The translations under genes were made by a program, and so were the position numbers. Shown one piece after another: positions 8,318 through 43,879 of a DNA stretch of 64,000 nt. The stretch spans positions 32,001 to 96,000 of the IMG/VR virus record IMGVR_UViG_3300020447_000001; one strand, 5' to 3'. The stretch comes from a virus. The notes beneath the pieces are model-generated. The model saw nothing but the letters and a program-made list of their open reading frames with translations. It did not search any database and had not been told where the DNA came from. The number at the start of each line of letters is the position of its first letter. The stretch's first letter is position 1.

Positions 8318-10402
8318 ATGCGCAATAAATACCGATTAATTCTTCGACATCGCTGGGCTCTAGGCGATACGGTATTATTAACTTCCCTTGTTCGAGATAT
8401 TCACCGCGCACATCCAGGTGAGTACGAAATTAAAGTTGAAACAAACTGGTCTCCTGTGTGGACTAACAATCCCCATGTTACTAGTTTCGAAGAAGCCGGA
8501 TTACCGCGAGCACAACGTATTGAAATAGGATGGGGAGACGGCATTAAGTGGAATGGGTATGCAAAGTTTAACGATAAGAAAGAAATGCGGCACATTCTAG
8601 CTTGGTATCATTACGATTTTACTCGTAAGACTGGTATCGAAGTTCCTGTTACCGACCCACGCCCTGACTTACATCTATCGCCTGCTGAAATTAAACCACG
8701 AGTGCAAGGAAGATACTGGGTCATACTATCAGGCGGTAAGCTAGATCTCACTAATAAACATTGGCATGCTCATAGAGTGCAAGAGACTGTAAACAGGCTA
8801 AAATCCTACGGATTACAGTTTGTCCAATGTGGTGCTACTCACAGCAGACATATCCACCCTCCATTAGAGGGTGTTTTAAATCTTGTAGGTAAGACAGACA
8901 ATGTTAGAGATTTCTGGAACGTCGTACTTCATTCTGAAGGCGTTATCTGTCCGGTGACAGGAGCTATGCATATTGCAGCAGCGTTCAATCGCCCATGCGT
9001 AGTTATTGCGGGAGGCCGTGAAGAGCCTTGGTTTGAAGCTTATTGTGACAATTTCGAAGCTTTCGGTCCTTCGGCTAAACCCGTAGTAATGCCACATAAA
9101 TTCCTGCATACTATAGGTTTGTTGGCTTGTTGTGACATTCAGGGGTGCTGGAAAAAACGAGTTATCCCTGTTGATCAATCGGATTTGTCTAGCAAAGCAC
9201 ACACTTTATGTCGTCAACCTGTGCGACCTGTGAATACACATGCTGTGCCAAGGTGCATGGATTTGATAACTGTGGATCATGTAGTGGAGGCTGTAATGGA
9301 CTATTACGATAAAGACGTATTGCCGCCTATTGGGGAGCCTAAGGGAGCATACCCAGACATTGTACCTACAGAAAATACCGCAGCTCCCACTACTGAAAAA
9401 CCAGTAGTAGCTCCAGAAGCTCCGCCTAACATTGTGGTTCCAACAGTAGAATTGCGAGAAGCTCCAAAAATATCCGGAGGCCCCGTTCTTCTTAGAGATC
9501 CGTCAGTTCACGCTAAAACACAACGTCCGGATCAGCAAATGCATCCGCAAGAGGCACAGTTGCAGTTAAATAAACCTCCTCTTAAAGCAAGAGCTGCGGT
9601 CTCGGAGCTTGATAATCCAATTATTGGCGGTCGGTACACAGTATTTGTATTGTGTTACGGTGATCATGTTGAGTTAGTAAAACGTTGTATTGATAGTATC
9701 TTAGAAACAGTACCAATACCTAGAATTGATTTACGTGTTGGAGGCAACGAATTAGGCCCTGCAACTATTCAATATTTGCAAACTGTTCCTGCCACTAAAT
9801 TATATCTTCACGCAGAAAATGCTAAAAAATATCCGCTAATGCGTGAAATGTTTTTTGATCCAAGTCATCCAGTTAACACGTCATATTTGCTGTGGTTTGA
9901 CGACGATGCTTATGTTGTAGACCCCCGTTGGTTATCTTTATTGACGTCAATGATTGTTGGCGGACATAACCAAGATTATCGGCTATATGGCAATAAAATG
10001 TTTCATGACATTAACGCATATAATACAGAAGATCACAATCCTTTACGTTGGTTCAGACATGCCGATTGGTTCACTGGAATGCCGTTACGTACCAGGGGTT
10101 CAGAGAGATTAGCTCCCAACGGTAGTGTCATAGATTTTGCTGTTGGTTGGTTTTGGGCTTTAGACGCCGTTTTAATGAAGACAGCGAATATACCCGATAA
10201 GCGCTTAAATCATAACGGAGGAGATATCACTATTGGAGCACAAGTACATCAGGCGGGATATAAAATACAACAATTTAATAAAGGTAAATCGTTAATCAGT
10301 ACGCCTAAAAAGGAAGAAGGCGGACGGCGTGTAGGCGGTTATGAGGAATCTTTTCCGTGGGTAAACCCTAAAAATGTATTTCAGCGGACATTTACGGTAT
10401 GA
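8318..10402 (+). CDS. Two-domain glycosyltransferase: N-terminal GT9 (heptosyltransferase-like) plus C-terminal GT-A/GT2-like
   Basis: LGDTVLLTSLVRDI; NLVGKT; VICPVTGAMHIAAAFNRPCVVIAGG (GT9 motifs); YTVFVLCYG and WFDDD (DxD motif). Confidence 0.85.
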   Translation: MRNKYRLILRHRWALGDTVLLTSLVRDIHRAHPGEYEIKVETNWSPVWTNNPHVTSFEEAGLPRAQRIEIGWGDGIKWNGYAKFNDKKEMRHILAWYHYDFTRKTGIEVPVTDPRPDLHLSPAEIKPRVQGRYWVILSGGKLDLTNKHWHAHRVQETVNRLKSYGLQFVQCGATHSRHIHPPLEGVLNLVGKTDNVRDFWNVVLHSEGVICPVTGAMHIAAAFNRPCVVIAGGREEPWFEAYCDNFEAFGPSAKPVVMPHKFLHTIGLLACCDIQGCWKKRVIPVDQSDLSSKAHTLCRQPVRPVNTHAVPRCMDLITVDHVVEAVMDYYDKDVLPPIGEPKGAYPDIVPTENTAAPTTEKPVVAPEAPPNIVVPTVELREAPKISGGPVLLRDPSVHAKTQRPDQQMHPQEAQLQLNKPPLKARAAVSELDNPIIGGRYTVFVLCYGDHVELVKRCIDSILETVPIPRIDLRVGGNELGPATIQYLQTVPATKLYLHAENAKKYPLMREMFFDPSHPVNTSYLLWFDDDAYVVDPRWLSLLTSMIVGGHNQDYRLYGNKMFHDINAYNTEDHNPLRWFRHADWFTGMPLRTRGSERLAPNGSVIDFAVGWFWALDAVLMKTANIPDKRLNHNGGDITIGAQVHQAGYKIQQFNKGKSLISTPKKEEGGRRVGGYEESFPWVNPKNVFQRTFTV

Positions 10403-10779
10403 ATACACGAGTTGGTAAAAAGTTGATTTTAGAGCATAATGTTGTGTATCAAATGTTCTCTGACCCATTGTTTTGGGAAAAAGTGCCAGAATTGCTGGAT
10501 ATGAAAGACGAAGGTGAATTAGCACACTATTTAGCGTTGGATAGGTTTTTCAACCCCCGAGAAGTAGCACCAGGATGTATGGATTGCGCTACCATAAAAA
10601 CAACATTGCAGCCTATTTTAAATAAACTCAGCTTACAAATCGCACAATGGATAGACGAGTCACCGGAAAAGACAGAGAATTTAGTTTCTTACTTAACTAA
10701 ACGTTTAGGCTACCGACCCGAATCAATTGTTATGCGATTAGAAAATAAGGCGGGTAAAACTCGTACTGTTGAATTTTAG
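10399..10779 (+). CDS. Hypothetical protein (CxxC)
   Basis: ORF overlapping the previous stop (ATGA coupling); CMDC. Confidence 0.65.
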   Translation: MNTRVGKKLILEHNVVYQMFSDPLFWEKVPELLDMKDEGELAHYLALDRFFNPREVAPGCMDCATIKTTLQPILNKLSLQIAQWIDESPEKTENLVSYLTKRLGYRPESIVMRLENKAGKTRTVEF

Positions 10780-10790
10780 GAGAGGTAAGG

Positions 10791-11246
10791 ATGGCTACTC
10801 GCCGAATACGATTAACCAAATATGCTGCGGAAAACGTTAACTACTCGTACTACGGGGCCTACCGCATGAAAGTTGCGGTTACGGACGTAGAGGGGGATGA
10901 TATTGATAAATACATCTTCATTTATCAGCGTCACCCGGACAGTCCGTATACGAATGCTAGCCAAGATGAATTTTCAGCCGTTTGCGGCCCCAGTCAATTT
11001 GCAACAATTCCCGCCGGTGCTCCGGATGCTAATCAAGGGTGGCCTTTCTACAGATTAGATTACGTTGAACTTGATTTCATGTCAGTTAATCAAGCGGATC
11101 AGGCATGGGAAGATATTAAGGTTGAGGTTAGTAAATTAGTTGAAGGCATGGGTAAGTTGACTGCTTTGGTTGCGGTAGAAGACGTTTGGTTTCCGTCCGC
11201 ACCTCCGGCTTCTTCGCAGTCTGAGTCCGCGTCTGATTCGTTGTAA
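10791..11246 (+). CDS. Hypothetical protein
   Basis: RBS ggagagg; in operon. Confidence 0.65.
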   Translation: MATRRIRLTKYAAENVNYSYYGAYRMKVAVTDVEGDDIDKYIFIYQRHPDSPYTNASQDEFSAVCGPSQFATIPAGAPDANQGWPFYRLDYVELDFMSVNQADQAWEDIKVEVSKLVEGMGKLTALVAVEDVWFPSAPPASSQSESASDSL

Positions 11247-11252
11247 TTATTA

Positions 11253-11585
11253 TTGGAGCAAACAATGGCAGTTGATCCTAGTGTACCGGTAAGGAAACTT
11301 GTAATCATGGAAGACGGTATGATTATTGGATTATCTAATAATCATCAATTTGTGACTGCCTTTCCCTTTTTAGCCCCACTAAAGAAATTAACTAACGCAC
11401 GTGTTGGCGGTTGCGGTAAATGCAATTCAGCTGCTAAGCAACGTGTTCAACTACTAAACTCGGCTAAGATGGCAATCATAGGTCTAGGACAAGACAAGAA
11501 AGACCAAATGAAGAAGCTCATGAATGCTAATAAGATACAGGTTAAATACCTGGCTGGACGAGAAGTCAAGACGCACGAGTTCTAA
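11253..11585 (+). CDS. Hypothetical protein (GCGKC motif)
   Basis: Last ORF of the structural operon; RBS ggag before the internal ATG. Confidence 0.6.
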   Translation: MEQTMAVDPSVPVRKLVIMEDGMIIGLSNNHQFVTAFPFLAPLKKLTNARVGGCGKCNSAAKQRVQLLNSAKMAIIGLGQDKKDQMKKLMNANKIQVKYLAGREVKTHEF

Positions 11586-11599
11586 CATGCCTATTTAAG

Positions 11600-11641
11600 C
11601 ACCTAAATTCTTGGCATTATTGCGTCATTATATAGTGAAGG
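11600..11641 (+). promoter_or_regulatory. Putative early promoter element, copy 1
   Basis: cacctaaatt-n-ttgg...ttgcgtcattat...tgaagg recurs at about 15019-15060; each copy is followed by a small hairpin. Confidence 0.45.
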
Positions 11642-11669
11642 ATAATATCCTTCAGCGACCTCAACGGTC

Positions 11670-36004: not shown

Positions 36005-36556
36005 TTGGTGGTGTCAGCAATGAAACTAGGCGGCTTAGAAATACTCAAACGAGTGCGGGACGGTTCAATAGTTATTGATCCGTTTGACGAATCTCAGCTT
36101 AACCCTAATTCCTACGACCTAAGACTAGCGGATACGTTAGTGACTTATGCCCACGATGACATGCCGCTGGACATGGCAAAAGAACACGACAGTTTTCAAG
36201 TTAAGATACCCACGGAGGGTGCCCTGCTACGCCCCGGAGAAATATACCTAGGATCAACTGTAGAGTACACAGAGACAGCGGATTTGATTCCAGGCATCGA
36301 AGGGCGTAGTAGTGTAGGACGGCTAGGAATCAACATTCACGCAACAGCAGGTTTCGGAGATGTTGGCTTTAAAGGAACATGGACGTTAGAATTAAGCGTC
36401 GTACGACCGGTTAGAATCTACGCTGGCGTACGTATTTGCCAGATCTATTACGAGCCTCTTATGGGTGATTTTACGCCTTACGAATCAGACAAGTATCAAG
36501 GGCAAACATTACCTAGACCTAGCGGCCTATGGAAAGAAGCAGAGGAGTGGACCTGA
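36005..36556 (+). CDS. dcd: dCTP deaminase
   Basis: QLNPNSYDLRL, EGRSSVGRLG, TAGFGDVGFKGTWTLE, RICQI, KYQGQ. Confidence 0.95.
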   Translation: MVVSAMKLGGLEILKRVRDGSIVIDPFDESQLNPNSYDLRLADTLVTYAHDDMPLDMAKEHDSFQVKIPTEGALLRPGEIYLGSTVEYTETADLIPGIEGRSSVGRLGINIHATAGFGDVGFKGTWTLELSVVRPVRIYAGVRICQIYYEPLMGDFTPYESDKYQGQTLPRPSGLWKEAEEWT

Positions 36557-37760: not shown

Positions 37761-38123
37761 ATGGTACAGCGATTTGGGCCTAGTAAACGCAGGACACGGA
37801 AACCACCGGAAAACGAATGGCTCCAGTTTATGTCGACGAGTGAAAAAGAGACTCTAAGGCAAAAAGAATGGTTAGATACATCTCTAGCGGATACTGGTTT
37901 ACCGGTTCGTGTGGTAAATTGCCTGGAGGAGGCCGGAATTCTTACTGTGGAGGACTTGACGAAACAAACCGCAGATGCGTTACTACGTATTACCAATTTT
38001 GGCGAGCAAACATTGGGACAATGTACTCGCCTGCTGGCAAAACTTAATCTTCCGCATTGCTTGCAGGAAGAGGCACATGAAGACCCCGGTAGGTGTATTA
38101 ACCTTAAGTCTCCTTCCAGGTGA
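37761..38123 (+). CDS. Stand-alone RNA polymerase alpha C-terminal domain protein
   Basis: SLADTGLPVRVVNCLEEAGILTVEDL...LLRITNFGEQTL matches the alpha-CTD pattern (LSVR..NCL....I.T..DL...NFG.KSL). Confidence 0.85.
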   Translation: MVQRFGPSKRRTRKPPENEWLQFMSTSEKETLRQKEWLDTSLADTGLPVRVVNCLEEAGILTVEDLTKQTADALLRITNFGEQTLGQCTRLLAKLNLPHCLQEEAHEDPGRCINLKSPSR

Positions 38124-38161: not shown

Positions 38162-38191
38162 AGCCTGGAGTCGATACTCCGGGCTTTTTTT
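38162..38191 (+). terminator. Terminator upstream of the RAMP-like gene
   Basis: agcctggagt-cgat-actccgggct tttttt. Confidence 0.8.
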
Positions 38192-38211: not shown

Positions 38212-39036
38212 ATGGCTACAATTACTAAAGCAAAAATAGCAAAGAACGGAAAAGTATCGACAGCAAAGAAGGCAACTTCACAGAGAAAGGATCCTTTTGA
38301 AAAGACGCGTATTGTAATACCGGCAATGAAGAAGGCGATCTACAGGGCTACCCTATATGGAAAAACGGATCTGATCGTACATGCTTTAGGCACGAAGGCA
38401 AAAAAGAAGTTGTTGGACTCAATGGGGCCGAAGAACGCTGCGTCGAAAGTGCGACCTGCTAAAGATCCCGCCGCTGAGTATTTTGACAGCATGTACATCC
38501 TTAACAACAAGTACGACTTTGTGACTGGAGAATACTCCAATCCTCACATGAAAGATCAGCCGTACACGGGCGACATCGACGCAGATTATGAGACTATTAT
38601 GCGTCCCATCCGGTACGAAGATTGCACGGCTATTCACGGGGTAGCTTGCGCGGGTATCCGAAAGGGCATGGTTCGTGCGGCAAAGTCGTGCGGGGCCGTT
38701 ATGACAGATACCAACTGTAATATACGGGTAGAAAGTCCTTATGGGAACGAGCTTGCCATTAAATTTGAAACTCTTGTTTCTGGGGAAGTCCCGGTTAAAG
38801 TCGGTAAAAACCAAACGGACTTGCGATATCGTCCTCACTATTCAAACTGGAGCATAGATATTGCGATTACTCACCAGTCTGAGATTATCGGGCCGGAAGA
38901 ATTGACACAACTCCTTCGAAATGCCGGGGAATTTGTCGGCCTGTCAGAATGGAGAAACGAGAAGGGCGGTCAATACGGCGCGTACGAAGTAGACCTCAAC
39001 AGTATTCAATACGAGCTAACTAAAGACAACAAGTAG
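38212..39036 (+). CDS. Cas7/RAMP-like RNA-binding protein, putative effector of the downstream GGY-NN array
   Basis: N-terminal strand RATLYGKTDLIVH; IRKGMVRAA helix; thumb-like VKVGKNQTDLRYRP; C-terminal Gly-rich loop LLRNAGEFVGLSEWRNEKGGQYGAYEV. Confidence 0.7.
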   Translation: MATITKAKIAKNGKVSTAKKATSQRKDPFEKTRIVIPAMKKAIYRATLYGKTDLIVHALGTKAKKKLLDSMGPKNAASKVRPAKDPAAEYFDSMYILNNKYDFVTGEYSNPHMKDQPYTGDIDADYETIMRPIRYEDCTAIHGVACAGIRKGMVRAAKSCGAVMTDTNCNIRVESPYGNELAIKFETLVSGEVPVKVGKNQTDLRYRPHYSNWSIDIAITHQSEIIGPEELTQLLRNAGEFVGLSEWRNEKGGQYGAYEVDLNSIQYELTKDNK

Positions 39037-39055
39037 ATAATTCTGTTTTCGTTAT

Positions 39056-39087
39056 AAGCCCCTAGCCTCCGGGCTAGGGGCTTTTTT
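39056..39087 (+). terminator. Hairpin between the RAMP-like gene and its partner
   Basis: aagcccctagcc-tcc-gggctaggggctt tttt, then aaggag. Confidence 0.8.
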
Positions 39088-39100
39088 AAAAGGAGAACTC

Positions 39101-39625
39101 ATGGAAGCTGCAATTAATTTTGAGTATCAAGCGAAGAAGGGTCGTCCGTTATCAGATGCGGTAGCCGAATTGGTGGGTCCTGAAATTCGATCGCTTAGCC
39201 AAGAGACAGGGGAGGAAGTCACCCCTGTCGAGTATTTAAACTGGGTAGCTACTCATCCACATAGTGAAAGTCACGCTTTGTTTGAGTGGGACGACACAGA
39301 AGCAGCGAAGAAATATCGTCTGCACCAAGCACGAAACATTATCAACTCGATTGAGATTAAGATAATTGATCATCGTGGAGATGAAACTTTTGTCCCTGCT
39401 TGGCTAAACATAAAGGTACAAAACGACGAAGAGGAATCTCCTCGTCAAGTCTACACTTCGTTTGAAAGTGTCGTAAATGATAATGAAAAAAGTCAAATAG
39501 TGGTGGCACAAGCGAGAAAAGAGTTTATTTCCTGGCGACGACGTTATTTGTTGTTTAGGAATGAGTTACCTCTAGCCGCTATTTTTGAGGCTACTGATGA
39601 GCTTGAGCTAGAAGAAGAAGGTTGA
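39101..39625 (+). CDS. Partner protein of the RAMP-like gene
   Basis: VTP...HPHSESHALFEWDDTEAAKKYRLHQARNIINSI motif; ends 13 nt before the array. Confidence 0.7.
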   Translation: MEAAINFEYQAKKGRPLSDAVAELVGPEIRSLSQETGEEVTPVEYLNWVATHPHSESHALFEWDDTEAAKKYRLHQARNIINSIEIKIIDHRGDETFVPAWLNIKVQNDEEESPRQVYTSFESVVNDNEKSQIVVAQARKEFISWRRRYLLFRNELPLAAIFEATDELELEEEG

Positions 39626-39638
39626 CACCTTAAAACAA

Positions 39639-40433
39639 GGCGAGGTACGGCTAGGCTAGGTACGTCATGTTCAGGTGGGGCGAGGCAGTCGTGGCTGGTT
39701 CGGGCGAGGCAGAGGCGTGGACTGGATGGGCAGTCGGGGCGAGGTCGGGCAAGGCAGCGTGGGGTCTGGTAGGGCAGGGCAGTCATGTCACGGACGGGCG
39801 AGGCAAGTCCGGGGCGGGCAAGGCCTGGCAGTCAAGTCAGGGTTTGGTCTGGAACGGCTAGGCTAGGCTGGGTCGGGCGTGGTTTGGCAGTCAGGGCGAG
39901 GCGAGGTCCGGTTTGGTGCGGAATGGTGGGATATGTAATGGCTGGTCGTGGCTGGTTCTGGCAGTCGGGGCTTGGTGGGGTACGGTAAGGTTTGGTTGGG
40001 TATGGTCTGACTTGGCAGTCTCGGCGAGGTCGGGCTAGGCTAGGCTAGGCTGGGTCGGGCATGGTGAGGCAGTCATGGCAAGTTCAGACTTGGCTAGGTA
40101 GGGCGGGCTCGGGCACGGCAGTCACGGCTAGTTCGGGAGTGACAAGGCGGGTTCAGGTCAGGTACGGCAAGGCAGTCAAGGCGGGGAAAGGCTGGGCTAG
40201 GCTGGGTGGGGTCTGGACAGGCAGTCACGGTGAGGTCTGTTGCGGTGAGTCGGGTACTGGTAAGGACGGGTTCGGCAGGCATGGTCGGGCAGCGTAGCTC
40301 ATGGCGAGGCCAGGCGAGGCCAGGCACGGCAGTCAAGGCGATGTGGGGTGTGGCTTGGCTAGGTAGGGCTTGGACAGTCGAGGCAGTCTAGTCATGACAA
40401 GGCTAGGTGTGGCGGGGTGCAGGTAAGGCAGTC
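39639..40433 (+). ncRNA. Array of 15 units of (GGY-NN)n pentamers separated by GGCAGTC; putative multi-guide RNA
   Basis: GGCAGTC at 39684, 39729, 39778, 39827, 39886, 39960, 40014, 40068, 40117, 40171, 40220, (GGCAGGC 40274), 40328, 40382, 40427; 12 of 14 spacings are 5n+4. Confidence 0.85.
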
Positions 40434-40446
40434 ACGTCCAGCTATG

Positions 40447-40486
40447 AACACCGCAAGTGCTACCATGCGCTTGCGGTGTTTTTTTT
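40447..40486 (+). terminator. Rho-independent terminator closing the array
   Basis: aacaccgcaagtgc-taccat-gcgcttgcggtgtt tttttt. Confidence 0.9.
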
Positions 40487-40560
40487 CTCTGGTACAAACC
40501 CTGGTACTTTTTTAGGGGGGACAAAAAGGGAGTCATATATTAGCCGATTAGACCGCAACT

Positions 40561-40782
40561 GCGCCGCAGCTAATTACCGGGGTTTGTACTAGCGCCGCAG
40601 CTAGGACGCAGCTGAGGACGCACTTGGGACGCACTTGTAATGCACTTGGAACGCACACTCCAGTGCACATTTTCTGCATATTTTCTGCACATTTTCTGCA
40701 TACTGGAGTGCACATTTTCTGCACAATGGGCTGAGGACGCACTTGGGACGCACACTGGAGTGCACATTTTCTGCACAATGGG
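40561..40782. repeat. Iteron-like direct/inverted repeat cluster
   Basis: ATTTTCTGCA x5; 24-mer at 40611 and 40730; 29-mer at 40702 and 40754; gcgccgcagcta x2; actccagt/actggagt inverted. Confidence 0.85.
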
Positions 40783-41829: not shown

Positions 41830-42039
41830 ATGACCATGTATGGTTCTCTTACAAAGAGACAAATGGCTCTTCTTACCCCCCATGCTGGCATCTTCGATTG
41901 GGATGACCTTCCCAAGGAGACGCAGCAGCAGGTCTTGGCAATCAGGGATCACGAGACAACGTGGTCTGACGCACAGCGCTATCTGGGCGATCTCTACAAT
42001 CCACATTTCGTAGATGCTGCCGCTAGATTGCTTAAATAG
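41830..42039 (+). CDS. Hypothetical protein
   Basis: RBS aaggag. Confidence 0.55.
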   Translation: MTMYGSLTKRQMALLTPHAGIFDWDDLPKETQQQVLAIRDHETTWSDAQRYLGDLYNPHFVDAAARLLK

Positions 42040-42061
42040 CACTATTTACGGAGAAAACACG

Positions 42062-42853
42062 ATGCTCCAGCCAATACCGGACAAGTTGGTGGTGTTGACC
42101 TTTGATGACGGGCATAGATCAGACCTTCATACAGTGGTTCCACTACTGCAACGTTTTTGTTTTGGAGCTACGTTTTTCATCCCTGGAAGGTGGAAACACC
42201 GTGCGGATGCTGCGGCTTTTTTAACTTGGGAGGAGGTAGAGCAGCTAGACAGTTTTGGCTTTGAGGTTGGTAATCACACACTTAGACATCCAAACCTTTT
42301 GGAGTGTGAGGCCTGGGAAGTTGCCAAAGAGATTGATGATCTTCATCAGTGTCTTTCAGACCGAGGTATTTCTCCCCCAGTGTCTTTTTGTTACCCCGGA
42401 TTTCACCACAATCCTTTGGTAGCGTCAGTAGTACAAGAGAAGAATTTCTTGTTTGCGAGACGGGGGGTTGATGGTGAGTTTAAGACAAAGGAAGGGTTTT
42501 GGAGAACCCTTAACGTTGATTCTCGTTTTGAAGATGGTAATTGCGGAGCACGGGGTCCGACTTACGACATAACACATGATCACCCGTTGCTAATACCAAT
42601 TACGTTGTACTATGGCTCTGCCATGTCTTTTGATGACGTAAAGTGGGCTGTTTCGCAAGCGGTTAACAAGCAGATTACTGTGTTGTGTTATCACGGCGTG
42701 CCAGAAGAGAAAGTATCTATAAGCACGTCTGTGGCGGACTTTAAACAACACATGGAGTACTTACACCATGAGGGTTGTCAGGTGATTGCCATGCGAGACC
42801 TGCAAAACTATGTGGATCCCGCCAAGTTCACGAGAGGTCCGTACGATGTTTGA
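42062..42853 (+). CDS. Polysaccharide deacetylase (NodB/CE4)
   Basis: VVLTFDDG, ATFFI, EVGNHTLRH, SFCYPG, LCYHGV. Confidence 0.9.
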   Translation: MLQPIPDKLVVLTFDDGHRSDLHTVVPLLQRFCFGATFFIPGRWKHRADAAAFLTWEEVEQLDSFGFEVGNHTLRHPNLLECEAWEVAKEIDDLHQCLSDRGISPPVSFCYPGFHHNPLVASVVQEKNFLFARRGVDGEFKTKEGFWRTLNVDSRFEDGNCGARGPTYDITHDHPLLIPITLYYGSAMSFDDVKWAVSQAVNKQITVLCYHGVPEEKVSISTSVADFKQHMEYLHHEGCQVIAMRDLQNYVDPAKFTRGPYDV

Positions 42854-43396: not shown

Positions 43397-43879
43397 GTGA
43401 TGAACCATCTTATTTCACAATATCTAGGAGAGCGGACGATGAAGGTTTTACTTATGGTTTTGGTATTGTTCGTCGCAAGTGTAGCCCAAGCTGGGGATTG
43501 GAGCGGACAAGAATTAACGTTGATGGAAAACGTTAACATTCAACAGATGTATGAAGTACATACCAAGCATCGAAGTCGTAACGGACTGCGACCACAGATT
43601 CTTAATGGTGAATTATGTCGTGCGGCTCAGGAGTGGTCAGAATATATGGCCGAGCATCACTATTTTAAGCACTCACATTATCCCGTCGCCGAAAATATTG
43701 CGGTGGGGCAGAAATCAGCAAATTCTGCCATGAATGCGTGGATACACAGCAGAGGGCACAATGCGAATTTGTTAGGGGGACATAATCAGGTCGGGTTCGG
43801 GATTGCTGAGTCTGCGGACGGAACTAGGTACTGGACATCATGTCATGGTTCAGGCTTTAAAGTGCACAAAGGAGGATGA
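43397..43879 (+). CDS. Secreted CAP/SCP-domain protein (probable start ATG 43439)
   Basis: Signal peptide; LCRAAQEWSEYMA, HS, AENIAVGQ, WIHSRGHNANLL, VGFG. Confidence 0.85.
   Translation: MMNHLISQYLGERTMKVLLMVLVLFVASVAQAGDWSGQELTLMENVNIQQMYEVHTKHRSRNGLRPQILNGELCRAAQEWSEYMAEHHYFKHSHYPVAENIAVGQKSANSAMNAWIHSRGHNANLLGGHNQVGFGIAESADGTRYWTSCHGSGFKVHKGG

What the first reader, a model, noticed from the sequence alone, without database searches (positions are those of the whole stretch)
39639..40433. Array grammar: near-strict 5-nt register, 15 different NN strings, GGCAGTC punctuation
Hand parse. Separator spacings are 45, 49, 49, 59, 74, 54, 54, 49, 54, 49, 54, 54, 54, 45, i.e. GGCAGTC-NN plus 7-13 pentamers; the two 45-nt units each carry one extra nt. 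About 94 of 132 pentamers start with GGY and 128 of 132 start with G. The NN positions vary and differ in every unit. Examples: unit 39967-40013 = GG TT GG AC AA TT TG AT CT TT; unit 40021-40067 = TC GA CG TA TA TA TG CG AT GA; unit 40227-40273 = AC GA CT GC GA GG CT AA CG TC. Units 39834 and 40021 share TA TA TG CG, hinting at duplication or recombination between units. A conserved scaffold with a varied payload is what an information-carrying repeat looks like, unlike a microsatellite. GGCAGTC is a candidate processing site.
Basis: partly seen in the sequence, partly recalled or inferred. Interest (0 to 1): 0.9.

Follow-up and report, generated by a model that had tools for sequence, protein, structure and literature searches.

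The report
Phage VIPR staggered guide-RNA array
The 800-base five-letter rhythm is real. It is a row of about 15 guide RNAs of a VIPR system, a CRISPR-related RNA-guided DNA silencer of phages first described in 2026, so this is a new example of a known kind, and its targets were not found.

Summary
Window 39639-40433 (+) holds 15 units built as GTCNN-(GGYNN)n-GGCAG. They are separated by 13 exact GGCAGTC and one GGCAGGC. Pentamer positions 1-3 carry 1.8, 1.1 and 0.7 bits; the NN positions carry about 0.1 bit.

If the G of GGCAG|GTC is shared by both neighbours, 13 of the 15 units are exact multiples of 5 nt. That is the 'staggered vrRNA array' of VIPR systems (bioRxiv 10.64898/2026.04.26.720920).

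The two upstream genes fit this reading:
- 38212-39036 encodes a Vipr. It matches SUSP1 Vipr (PDB 36pp) by sequence at E 2e-6 and keeps the G-loop (D/E)WR motif. Its model matches Cas7/Csm3/Cmr4 folds.
- 39101-39625 encodes an accessory protein with a probable winged-helix fold. Its homologues lie beside a Vipr gene and a pentamer array in 70 of 80 IMG/VR loci, and in the cultured Gordonia phage Ecliptus.

Relatives whose Vipr is 90% identical share only 3-4 guide units with this array.

No self-target exists. The target searches gave only hits at about chance level.

This scan has found VIPR arrays before on other DNA. Verdict: a new member of a known kind.

The parts
38162..38185 (+). terminator-like hairpin ending the upstream gene; marks the start of the vipr-vap-array unit
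38212..39036 (+). vipr gene (274 aa, P0001): small Cas7-like RAMP
   Evidence: phmmer hit to PDB 36pp_D 'SUSP1 Vipr protein', E 2.1e-6, over the G-loop region. BLASTP to the phiSUSP1 CDS, E 2e-12, with E-W-R aligned to SUSP1 D177-W178-R179. AF2 model pLDDT 90. Foldseek top hits are Csm3/Cmr4/type VII Cas7, E about 1e-5. 1624 representative homologues.
39101..39625 (+). vap gene (174 aa, P0002, phrog_15946): accessory protein, probable winged helix plus a long C-terminal helix
   Evidence: Homologues sit beside both a Vipr ORF and a pentamer array in 70 of 80 IMG/VR loci. Homologue gp20 of Gordonia phage Ecliptus, E 5e-11. AF2 pLDDT 88. VIA-align Z 5-7 to many winged-helix domains. No Pfam hit.
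39639..40433 (+). staggered vrRNA array: 15 guide units, each GTCNN-(GGYNN)n-GGCAG, with the last G shared with the next unit. Unit spans: 39639-39688, 39688-39733, 39733-39782, 39782-39831, 39831-39890, 39890-39964, 39964-40018, 40018-40072, 40072-40121, 40121-40175, 40175-40224, 40224-40278, 40278-40332, 40332-40386, 40386-40431
   Evidence: Parse gives unit lengths 50, 46, 50, 50, 60, 75, 55, 55, 50, 55, 50, 55, 55, 55, 46. NN lists are; information content is.
40446..40491 (+). strong intrinsic terminator (15-bp stem, T run) ending the array transcript; conserved in the relatives L203 and L205

Best explanation
The tract is the guide-RNA (vrRNA) array of a phage VIPR system of the 'staggered array' kind.

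Inferred: vipr (38212-39036), vap (39101-39625) and the array are transcribed together on the + strand and stop at the terminator at 40446.

Established for SUSP1 in the published work and assumed here: Vipr protomers bind the RNA one per pentamer, hold each GGY and expose the two NN bases. The NN bases of one unit (9-15 pentamers) then read double-stranded DNA as NNxNNx..., and the bound filament silences transcription of a competing mobile element.

My inference: the constant GGCAG followed by a 4-nt step (GTC in place of GGC, one G shared) breaks the 5-nt register. A Vipr filament therefore cannot continue across the junction. This delimits one guide from the next and leaves the junction open to trimming.

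Inferred from a middling fold match: the winged-helix-like vap helps at the DNA level.
For: 1. Grammar. GGY is conserved and NN is near-random. Units are 9-15 pentamers, within or near the published 9-16. With one shared G, 13 of 15 units are multiples of 5, which matches the published 1-nt-overlap staggered arrays.
2. Vipr. A sequence match to SUSP1 Vipr in PDB and in the phage record keeps the G-loop WR that contacts G2 and Y3. The fold is Cas7-like.
3. Linkage. Of 80 IMG/VR loci fetched through the vap protein alone, 75 have a lag-5 G array within 1.5 kb and 73 have a same-strand Vipr ORF. The array is always G-rich on the coding strand.
4. Family-wide punctuation. The 68 arrays hold 791 -1 slips with consensus GGCAG-GC, and 485 of 723 spacings equal 4 mod 5.
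5. Payload turnover. Relatives with 90% identical Vipr and 86-89% identical flanks share only 3-4 of 11-18 units.
6. No guide matches its own 116-kb record at 80% or more of NN positions, as in the paper.
7. A terminator follows the array and it is the only such array in the record.
Against: So transcription, unit boundaries and cleavage are inferred. No convincing target was found, and exact gapped scans gave hit numbers near chance. Several pentamers depart from GGY (for example GATAT, GTAAT, CGTAG, CTCAT), so some units may be decaying. The published work did not confirm staggered arrays by small-RNA sequencing. The VIPR type number cannot be assigned here.
Confidence: 0.9

Rival explanations
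1. The array is a relic or a decoy. Either it is a partly decayed array that no longer guides anything, or it is a set of RNAs that soak up or redirect the Vipr of a competing phage. Satellite solo vrRNAs do this in E. coli.
For: Some units have degraded scaffolds and two have a 1-nt insertion. No target was found. The October 2026 preprint describes decoy and solo vrRNAs.
Against: The phage's own vipr and vap genes are intact, adjacent and conserved. 13 of 15 units keep an exact 5n length. Relatives keep the same module with different guides, which argues for selection on the payload.
Confidence: 0.06
2. The tract is a G-rich structural element that acts as DNA or nascent RNA, independently of Vipr. 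Examples are an R-loop or G-quadruplex replication origin, or a protein sponge with 5-nt periodicity (TRAP- or CsrA-like).
For: The tract is 45% G on the non-template strand, with GG every 5 nt. An 11-nt iteron-like repeat block lies just downstream at 40560-40760. GAG and TAG triplets at 5-nt spacing occur in some runs. The RNA folds better than shuffles, z = -5.4, but with no dominant structure.
Against: The tight linkage to a Cas7-like gene in 73 of 80 loci is not explained by an origin or a sponge. The iteron block is missing in relative L203 while the array stays. Cumulative GC skew shows no turn here. Only about a quarter of the pentamers give GAG or TAG.
Confidence: 0.03
3. The tract codes for protein, or is a decaying microsatellite.
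For: Short ORFs of 61-80 aa overlap the tract.
Against: A 5-nt period with a -1 slip per unit cannot keep a reading frame. Stops occur in all frames. NN entropy is near maximal while GGY is conserved, which is the opposite of uniform decay. TRF finds only short local repeats.
Confidence: 0.01

Closest known systems
VIPR systems with staggered vrRNA arrays (bioRxiv 10.64898/2026.04.26.720920, fig. S18)
   Same: A phage-borne small Cas7-like Vipr with an accessory gene. GGY/NN pentamer guides. Adjacent guides abut with a 1-nt overlap. No ribozyme and no long tail between units.
   Different: The junction here reads GGCAG-TC, whereas related arrays mostly read GGCAG-GC. Gene order is vipr-vap-array, against vipr-array-vap in most relatives. 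The type number could not be assigned because the supplement is not held.
Type II VIPR of Escherichia phage SUSP1 (Vipr structure PDB 36pp; bioRxiv 10.64898/2026.04.26.720927)
   Same: The Vipr C-terminal half aligns (33% identity over 70 aa), including the G-loop WR. Same GGY/NN code.
   Different: The SUSP1 Vipr is about 195-202 aa, against 274 aa here. SUSP1 vrRNAs are separate RNAs of about 100 nt with a conserved 3' tail and pseudoknot; here there is no tail. SUSP1 vap1 shows no similarity to this vap.
Gordonia phage Ecliptus (OP820472.1) genes 19-20 and the intergenic tract 10968-11228
   Same: The same three-part module: a Vipr homologue (25% identity over 93% of the query), a GGCNN array with GGCAGGC junctions and a vap homologue (E 5e-11). 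The phage is cultured.
   Different: Order is vipr-array-vap. The array is much shorter (about 260 nt). The host is an actinobacterium. All parts are annotated as hypothetical.
CRISPR arrays with Class 1 Cas7 backbones
   Same: A RAMP filament on a guide RNA with periodic flipped bases. The array holds variable guides that turn over between close relatives.
   Different: There are no 23-50-nt direct repeats or spacers, no cas1/cas2 nearby, the guide is non-contiguous (2 of every 5 nt), and the system is phage-encoded.

Membership tests
VIPR system | Vipr protein: a small RAMP (RRM core, G-loop, thumb) encoded at the locus | tested here: met
   PDB 36pp_D SUSP1 Vipr, E 2.1e-6. BLASTP E 2e-12. 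AF2 pLDDT 90 and Foldseek hits to Csm3/Cmr4/Cas7 at E about 1e-5.
VIPR system | G-loop residues that hold G1, G2 and Y3 (SUSP1 D177, W178, R179) | tested here: met
   They align to E-W-R in ...GLSEWRNEKGG.... R248 is invariant across 56 homologues. Thumb R138 and H17 could not be aligned.
VIPR system | vrRNA made of tandem GGY/NN pentamers (9-16 per guide), with GGY conserved and NN hypervariable | tested here: met
   15 units of 9-15 pentamers. 1.79, 1.07 and 0.70 bits at positions 1-3, against 0.06 and 0.13 bits at NN.
VIPR system | A vipr-accessory (vap) gene in the operon | tested here: met
   P0002 homologues co-occur with both Vipr and an array in 70 of 80 loci. The winged-helix-like fold is only at Z 5-7.
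VIPR system | Encoded mainly by phages | tested here: met
   IMG/VR virus record of 116 kb with a large terminase gene.
VIPR system | Guides do not match their own genome at 80% or more of NN positions | tested here: met
   The best self scores are 63-78% of NN positions in the 116-kb record. The record is only about 52% complete.
VIPR system | vrRNAs are expressed, processed and bound by Vipr | not testable with these tools
VIPR system | Natural targets readable by the 1-nt-skip rule (NNx), usually in competing mobile elements | tested here: inconclusive
   Five exact gapped scans of IMG/VR gave 4, 0, 0, 3 and 1 hits, near chance. The two best leads are given in the report.
Staggered vrRNA array (sub-architecture) | Adjacent vrRNAs overlap by 1 nt, with no spacer, tail or ribozyme between them | tested here: met
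   With the G of GGCAG|GTC shared, units are 50, 55, 60 or 75 nt. Rfam finds no ribozyme. The same -1 slip occurs in 68 related arrays.
Type II VIPR (SUSP1-like) | Separate vrRNAs with a conserved 3' tail or pseudoknot, and a vap1 accessory gene | tested here: not met
   There is no tail between units. vap1 of SUSP1 is not similar to P0002, E 6.5.
CRISPR array | Direct repeats of about 23-50 nt alternating with spacers | tested here: not met
   TRF and the hand parse show only a 5-nt scaffold and a 7-nt junction.

The most novel reading that the evidence does not exclude
In staggered arrays the one-base register slip at GGCAG|G(T/G)C may itself be the punctuation. It would stop Vipr filament growth, so guides are measured and separated with no dedicated nuclease, ribozyme or tail. 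The constant junction may also serve as the recombination point where whole guide cassettes are swapped between related phages. That would explain why phages with 90% identical Vipr share only 3-4 units. Neither the processing nor the acquisition route of staggered arrays has been shown experimentally.
Probability: 0.3. Interest if true: 0.55.

Novelty: new member of a known kind. Interest (0 to 1): 0.3.

Why it matters
This adds a well-delimited 15-guide staggered VIPR array from an uncultured marine jumbo-size phage. It comes with three things that may be useful beyond the known description:
- A family-wide junction rule: GGCAG followed by a 4-nt step, with unit length 5n+4 between junctions.
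- An accessory-protein family (phrog_15946, probably winged helix) that marks this VIPR lineage and finds its loci by itself.
- A cultured exemplar, Gordonia phage Ecliptus genes 19-20, in which processing of staggered arrays could be tested.

The comparison with two close relatives shows guide turnover much faster than gene divergence. This bears on the open question of how VIPR arrays acquire guides.

Tried and rejected
Before the VIPR lead:
- I considered a TRAP/CsrA-type protein sponge, an R-loop or G-quadruplex origin, chi or primase site arrays, a pac site and type III antitoxin repeats. I dropped these once the Cas7-like neighbour and its linkage were shown.
- blastn against cultured phages found nothing for the array or for 8 kb around it.
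- Rfam gave only sub-threshold chance hits.

Target searches:
- Unit 3 pattern: 4 IMG/VR hits. Two lie in the wobble frame of an internal virion protein (phrog_511, motif ITREKWQKL; L211, L213). Those phages are 64% and 59% GC, no other guide of three arrays converges on their full records, and the hit count is near chance.
- Units 4 and 7: no hit.
- Unit 10: 3 hits in unrelated contexts.
- Unit 0: one hit, 18 of 20 NN positions, on the TATAAT-plus-Shine-Dalgarno spacer just upstream of uvsX in a T4-like contig (L228, 48% GC). The position is attractive for a silencer, but it is a single hit near chance expectation, and the spacer is not covered in cultured relatives.

Other negatives:
- Foldseek found no match for the vap model.
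- The supplement of the discovery paper is not held, so no type number could be assigned.
- The host was not identified. The sources of homologues (Tara and JGI marine sets) suggest a marine phage.
- The genome-contig scan and complex prediction were not used.

Full report
**1. The observation**

Window 39639-40433 was read directly.
- GGCAGTC occurs 13 times on the + strand inside the tract and twice in the remaining 63 kb.
- The tract is 45% G. G autocorrelation peaks at lags 5, 10, 15 and 20: it is 0.31 at lag 5 and 0.13 at lag 2.
- Pentamer positions 1-3 carry 1.79, 1.07 and 0.70 bits. The NN positions carry 0.06 and 0.13 bits. 139 of 143 pentamers start with G and 99 of 143 are GGY.
- No ORF longer than 80 aa overlaps the tract, and TRF sees only short local repeats.

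**2. Register**

Suppose the last G of GGCAG also serves as the first base of the next unit (GTCNN). The units are then 50, 46, 50, 50, 60, 75, 55, 55, 50, 55, 50, 55, 55, 55 and 46 nt. That makes 13 of 15 exact multiples of five, and the two others carry a single extra base. So the 'punctuation' is a constant last pentamer, GGCAG, followed by a one-base register slip.

**3. Surroundings**

The window is part of a 116-kb IMG/VR virus record that CheckV rates about 52% complete. It has a large terminase gene. The tract directly follows two + strand genes and is closed by a strong intrinsic terminator at 40446-40481. A terminator-like hairpin at 38162 precedes the first gene. It is the only such tract in the record.

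**4. The lead and the literature**

Before I knew any name for it, I fetched IMG/VR loci through the 174-aa neighbour protein alone. Nearly all of them carried a G-rich lag-5 array next to the homologue, always on the coding strand.

Earlier notes of this scan then pointed to VIPR systems. I read the preprints. They report the following:
- Vipr is a small Cas7-like RAMP.
- vrRNAs are 9-16 GGY/NN pentamers.
- One protomer binds per repeat, holds the GGY and exposes the NN.
- The target is double-stranded DNA read as NNx with a skipped base, often at codon wobble positions.
- Binding silences transcription of competing phages and satellites.
- Seven types exist, and 'staggered arrays with overlapping vrRNAs' are among the array forms. 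According to the text, these were not among the architectures confirmed by small-RNA sequencing.

**5. Membership, tested here**

*Vipr.* The 274-aa product of 38212-39036 matches 'SUSP1 Vipr protein' (PDB 36pp_D) at E 2.1e-6. It also matches the phiSUSP1 CDS at E 2e-12. In that alignment its E-W-R lines up with D177-W178-R179, the G-loop residues that the cryo-EM paper shows holding G1, G2 and Y3. tblastn also finds Gordonia phage homologues over 79-93% of its length. An exhaustive HMMER search finds 1624 representative relatives. An AlphaFold model built on 56 sequences has pLDDT 90. Its best PDB matches are Csm3, Cmr4 and type VII Cas7 backbone subunits, at E about 1e-5.

*vap.* The 174-aa product of 39101-39625 (phrog_15946, no Pfam hit) behaves as an accessory protein.
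- Of 80 loci found through it, 75 have an array within 1.5 kb, 73 have a same-strand Vipr ORF, and 70 have both.
- The gene order is vipr-array-vap in 53 loci and vipr-vap-array, as here, in 15.
- Its model (pLDDT 88) has no Foldseek match. It aligns at Z 5-7 to many winged-helix domains such as MecI/BlaI, PadR, Fur, forkhead and TFE. That fits the published 'WH-like' DNA-binding vaps but does not prove it.
- It is unrelated to SUSP1 vap1. There is also no 3' tail between units. The locus is therefore not type II, and the type number could not be assigned.

**6. Grammar across the family**

I ran a Viterbi register decoder on 68 distinct arrays from the vap-linked loci. It found 791 -1 slips with consensus GGCAG-GC. 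The spacings were 49, 54, 44, 59, 64 and 39 nt, and 485 of 723 spacings equal 4 mod 5. The window's GGCAG-TC is a local variant of this junction. The cultured Gordonia phage Ecliptus carries the same module, all annotated as hypothetical: gene 19 (Vipr homologue), a roughly 260-nt GGCNN array with GGCAGGC junctions, and gene 20 (vap homologue).

**7. Turnover**

Three metagenome contigs encode a 90% identical Vipr. Their vipr and vap genes and the terminator are 86-89% identical and colinear with the window. The arrays, however, have 11 and 18 units, and only 3-4 of those correspond to window units. The shared ones lie mostly at the vap-proximal end. The rest share only the scaffold. The payload is therefore replaced much faster than the genes diverge. 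With three arrays, polarity cannot be settled.

**8. Targets**

No guide matches its own record at 80% or more of NN positions; the best scores are 63-78%.

Only exact gapped patterns could be scanned in IMG/VR, and the five scans gave 4, 0, 0, 3 and 1 hits. By my rough estimate from pattern specificity, that is about what chance predicts.

Two leads are recorded but not claimed.
- The unit shared by all three phages spells ITREKWQKL in the wobble frame of an internal virion protein (phrog_511) in two unrelated high-GC phages. No other guide converges on those genomes.
- The first unit matches 18 of 20 NN positions in the TATAAT-plus-ribosome-site spacer just upstream of uvsX in a T4-like contig of similar GC. 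The spacer is not covered in cultured relatives.

**9. Mechanism and status of each step**

- Shown here: the array grammar, the Vipr and vap genes, their linkage, the guide turnover and the absence of self-targets.
- Taken from the published SUSP1 and P. fulva work: filament assembly, the NNx code and silencing.
- Inferred by me: co-transcription of the module, and the idea that the register slip ends a filament and so delimits guides.
- Not testable here: expression, end mapping and target identity.

**10. Verdict**

This is a genuine, well-formed VIPR staggered guide array. It is a new member of a known kind, and this scan has already met several such arrays on other DNA.

Noticed in passing
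window 40560-40760: Just after the array terminator lies a block of 11-nt tandem repeats (units like GGACGCACTTG and TGCACATTTTC, several copies each; partly palindromic, iteron-like). The stretch 40490-40775 has no counterpart in relative L203, where the terminator is followed directly by the homologue of window 40775 onward. It may be an inserted origin or regulatory block.
   Followed up: partly
window 37761-38123 (+): A phage gene for a 120-aa protein with an RNA polymerase alpha C-terminal domain (PF03118, E 1.1e-13) lies directly upstream of the VIPR module. It may be a host-transcription takeover factor.
   Followed up: no
L226 (Gordonia phage Ecliptus OP820472.1) 10338-11651 in the record: A cultured actinophage carries an unannotated VIPR module between its tail chaperone and tape measure genes: gene 19 Vipr-like, an intergenic GGCNN staggered array, and gene 20 vap-like. 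All are annotated as hypothetical.
   Followed up: partly
L228 1331-1363 (IMGVR_UViG_3300009075_000060): A T4-like contig (DNA polymerase followed by uvsX). Its 32-nt spacer, containing TATAAT and a Shine-Dalgarno site, matches the NNx reading of the window's first guide at 18 of 20 positions. It is a single hit near chance expectation.
   Followed up: partly
window 39031-39088 (+): A sub-threshold Rfam hit to NsiR1 (27.6 bits against a gathering score of 39, E 0.012) between vipr and vap. It coincides with a small terminator-like hairpin at 39064-39082 and is probably only a hairpin.
   Followed up: no
window 39782-39890, 40386-40431; L203 2032-2091, 2273-2336; L205 2583-2646: Several units start with a doubled GTCNN GTCNN. 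Units in different phages share their first four pentamers (GA AG TT CT) and then diverge. This looks like chimeric units made by recombination inside guides.
   Followed up: partly
window 36005-36556, 42014-42853, 43397-43879: Auxiliary genes near the module: a dCTP deaminase-like gene, a polysaccharide deacetylase, and a CAP/YkwD-like 'sporulation protein' family gene. The host remains unknown. Homologues come from marine data sets.
   Followed up: no
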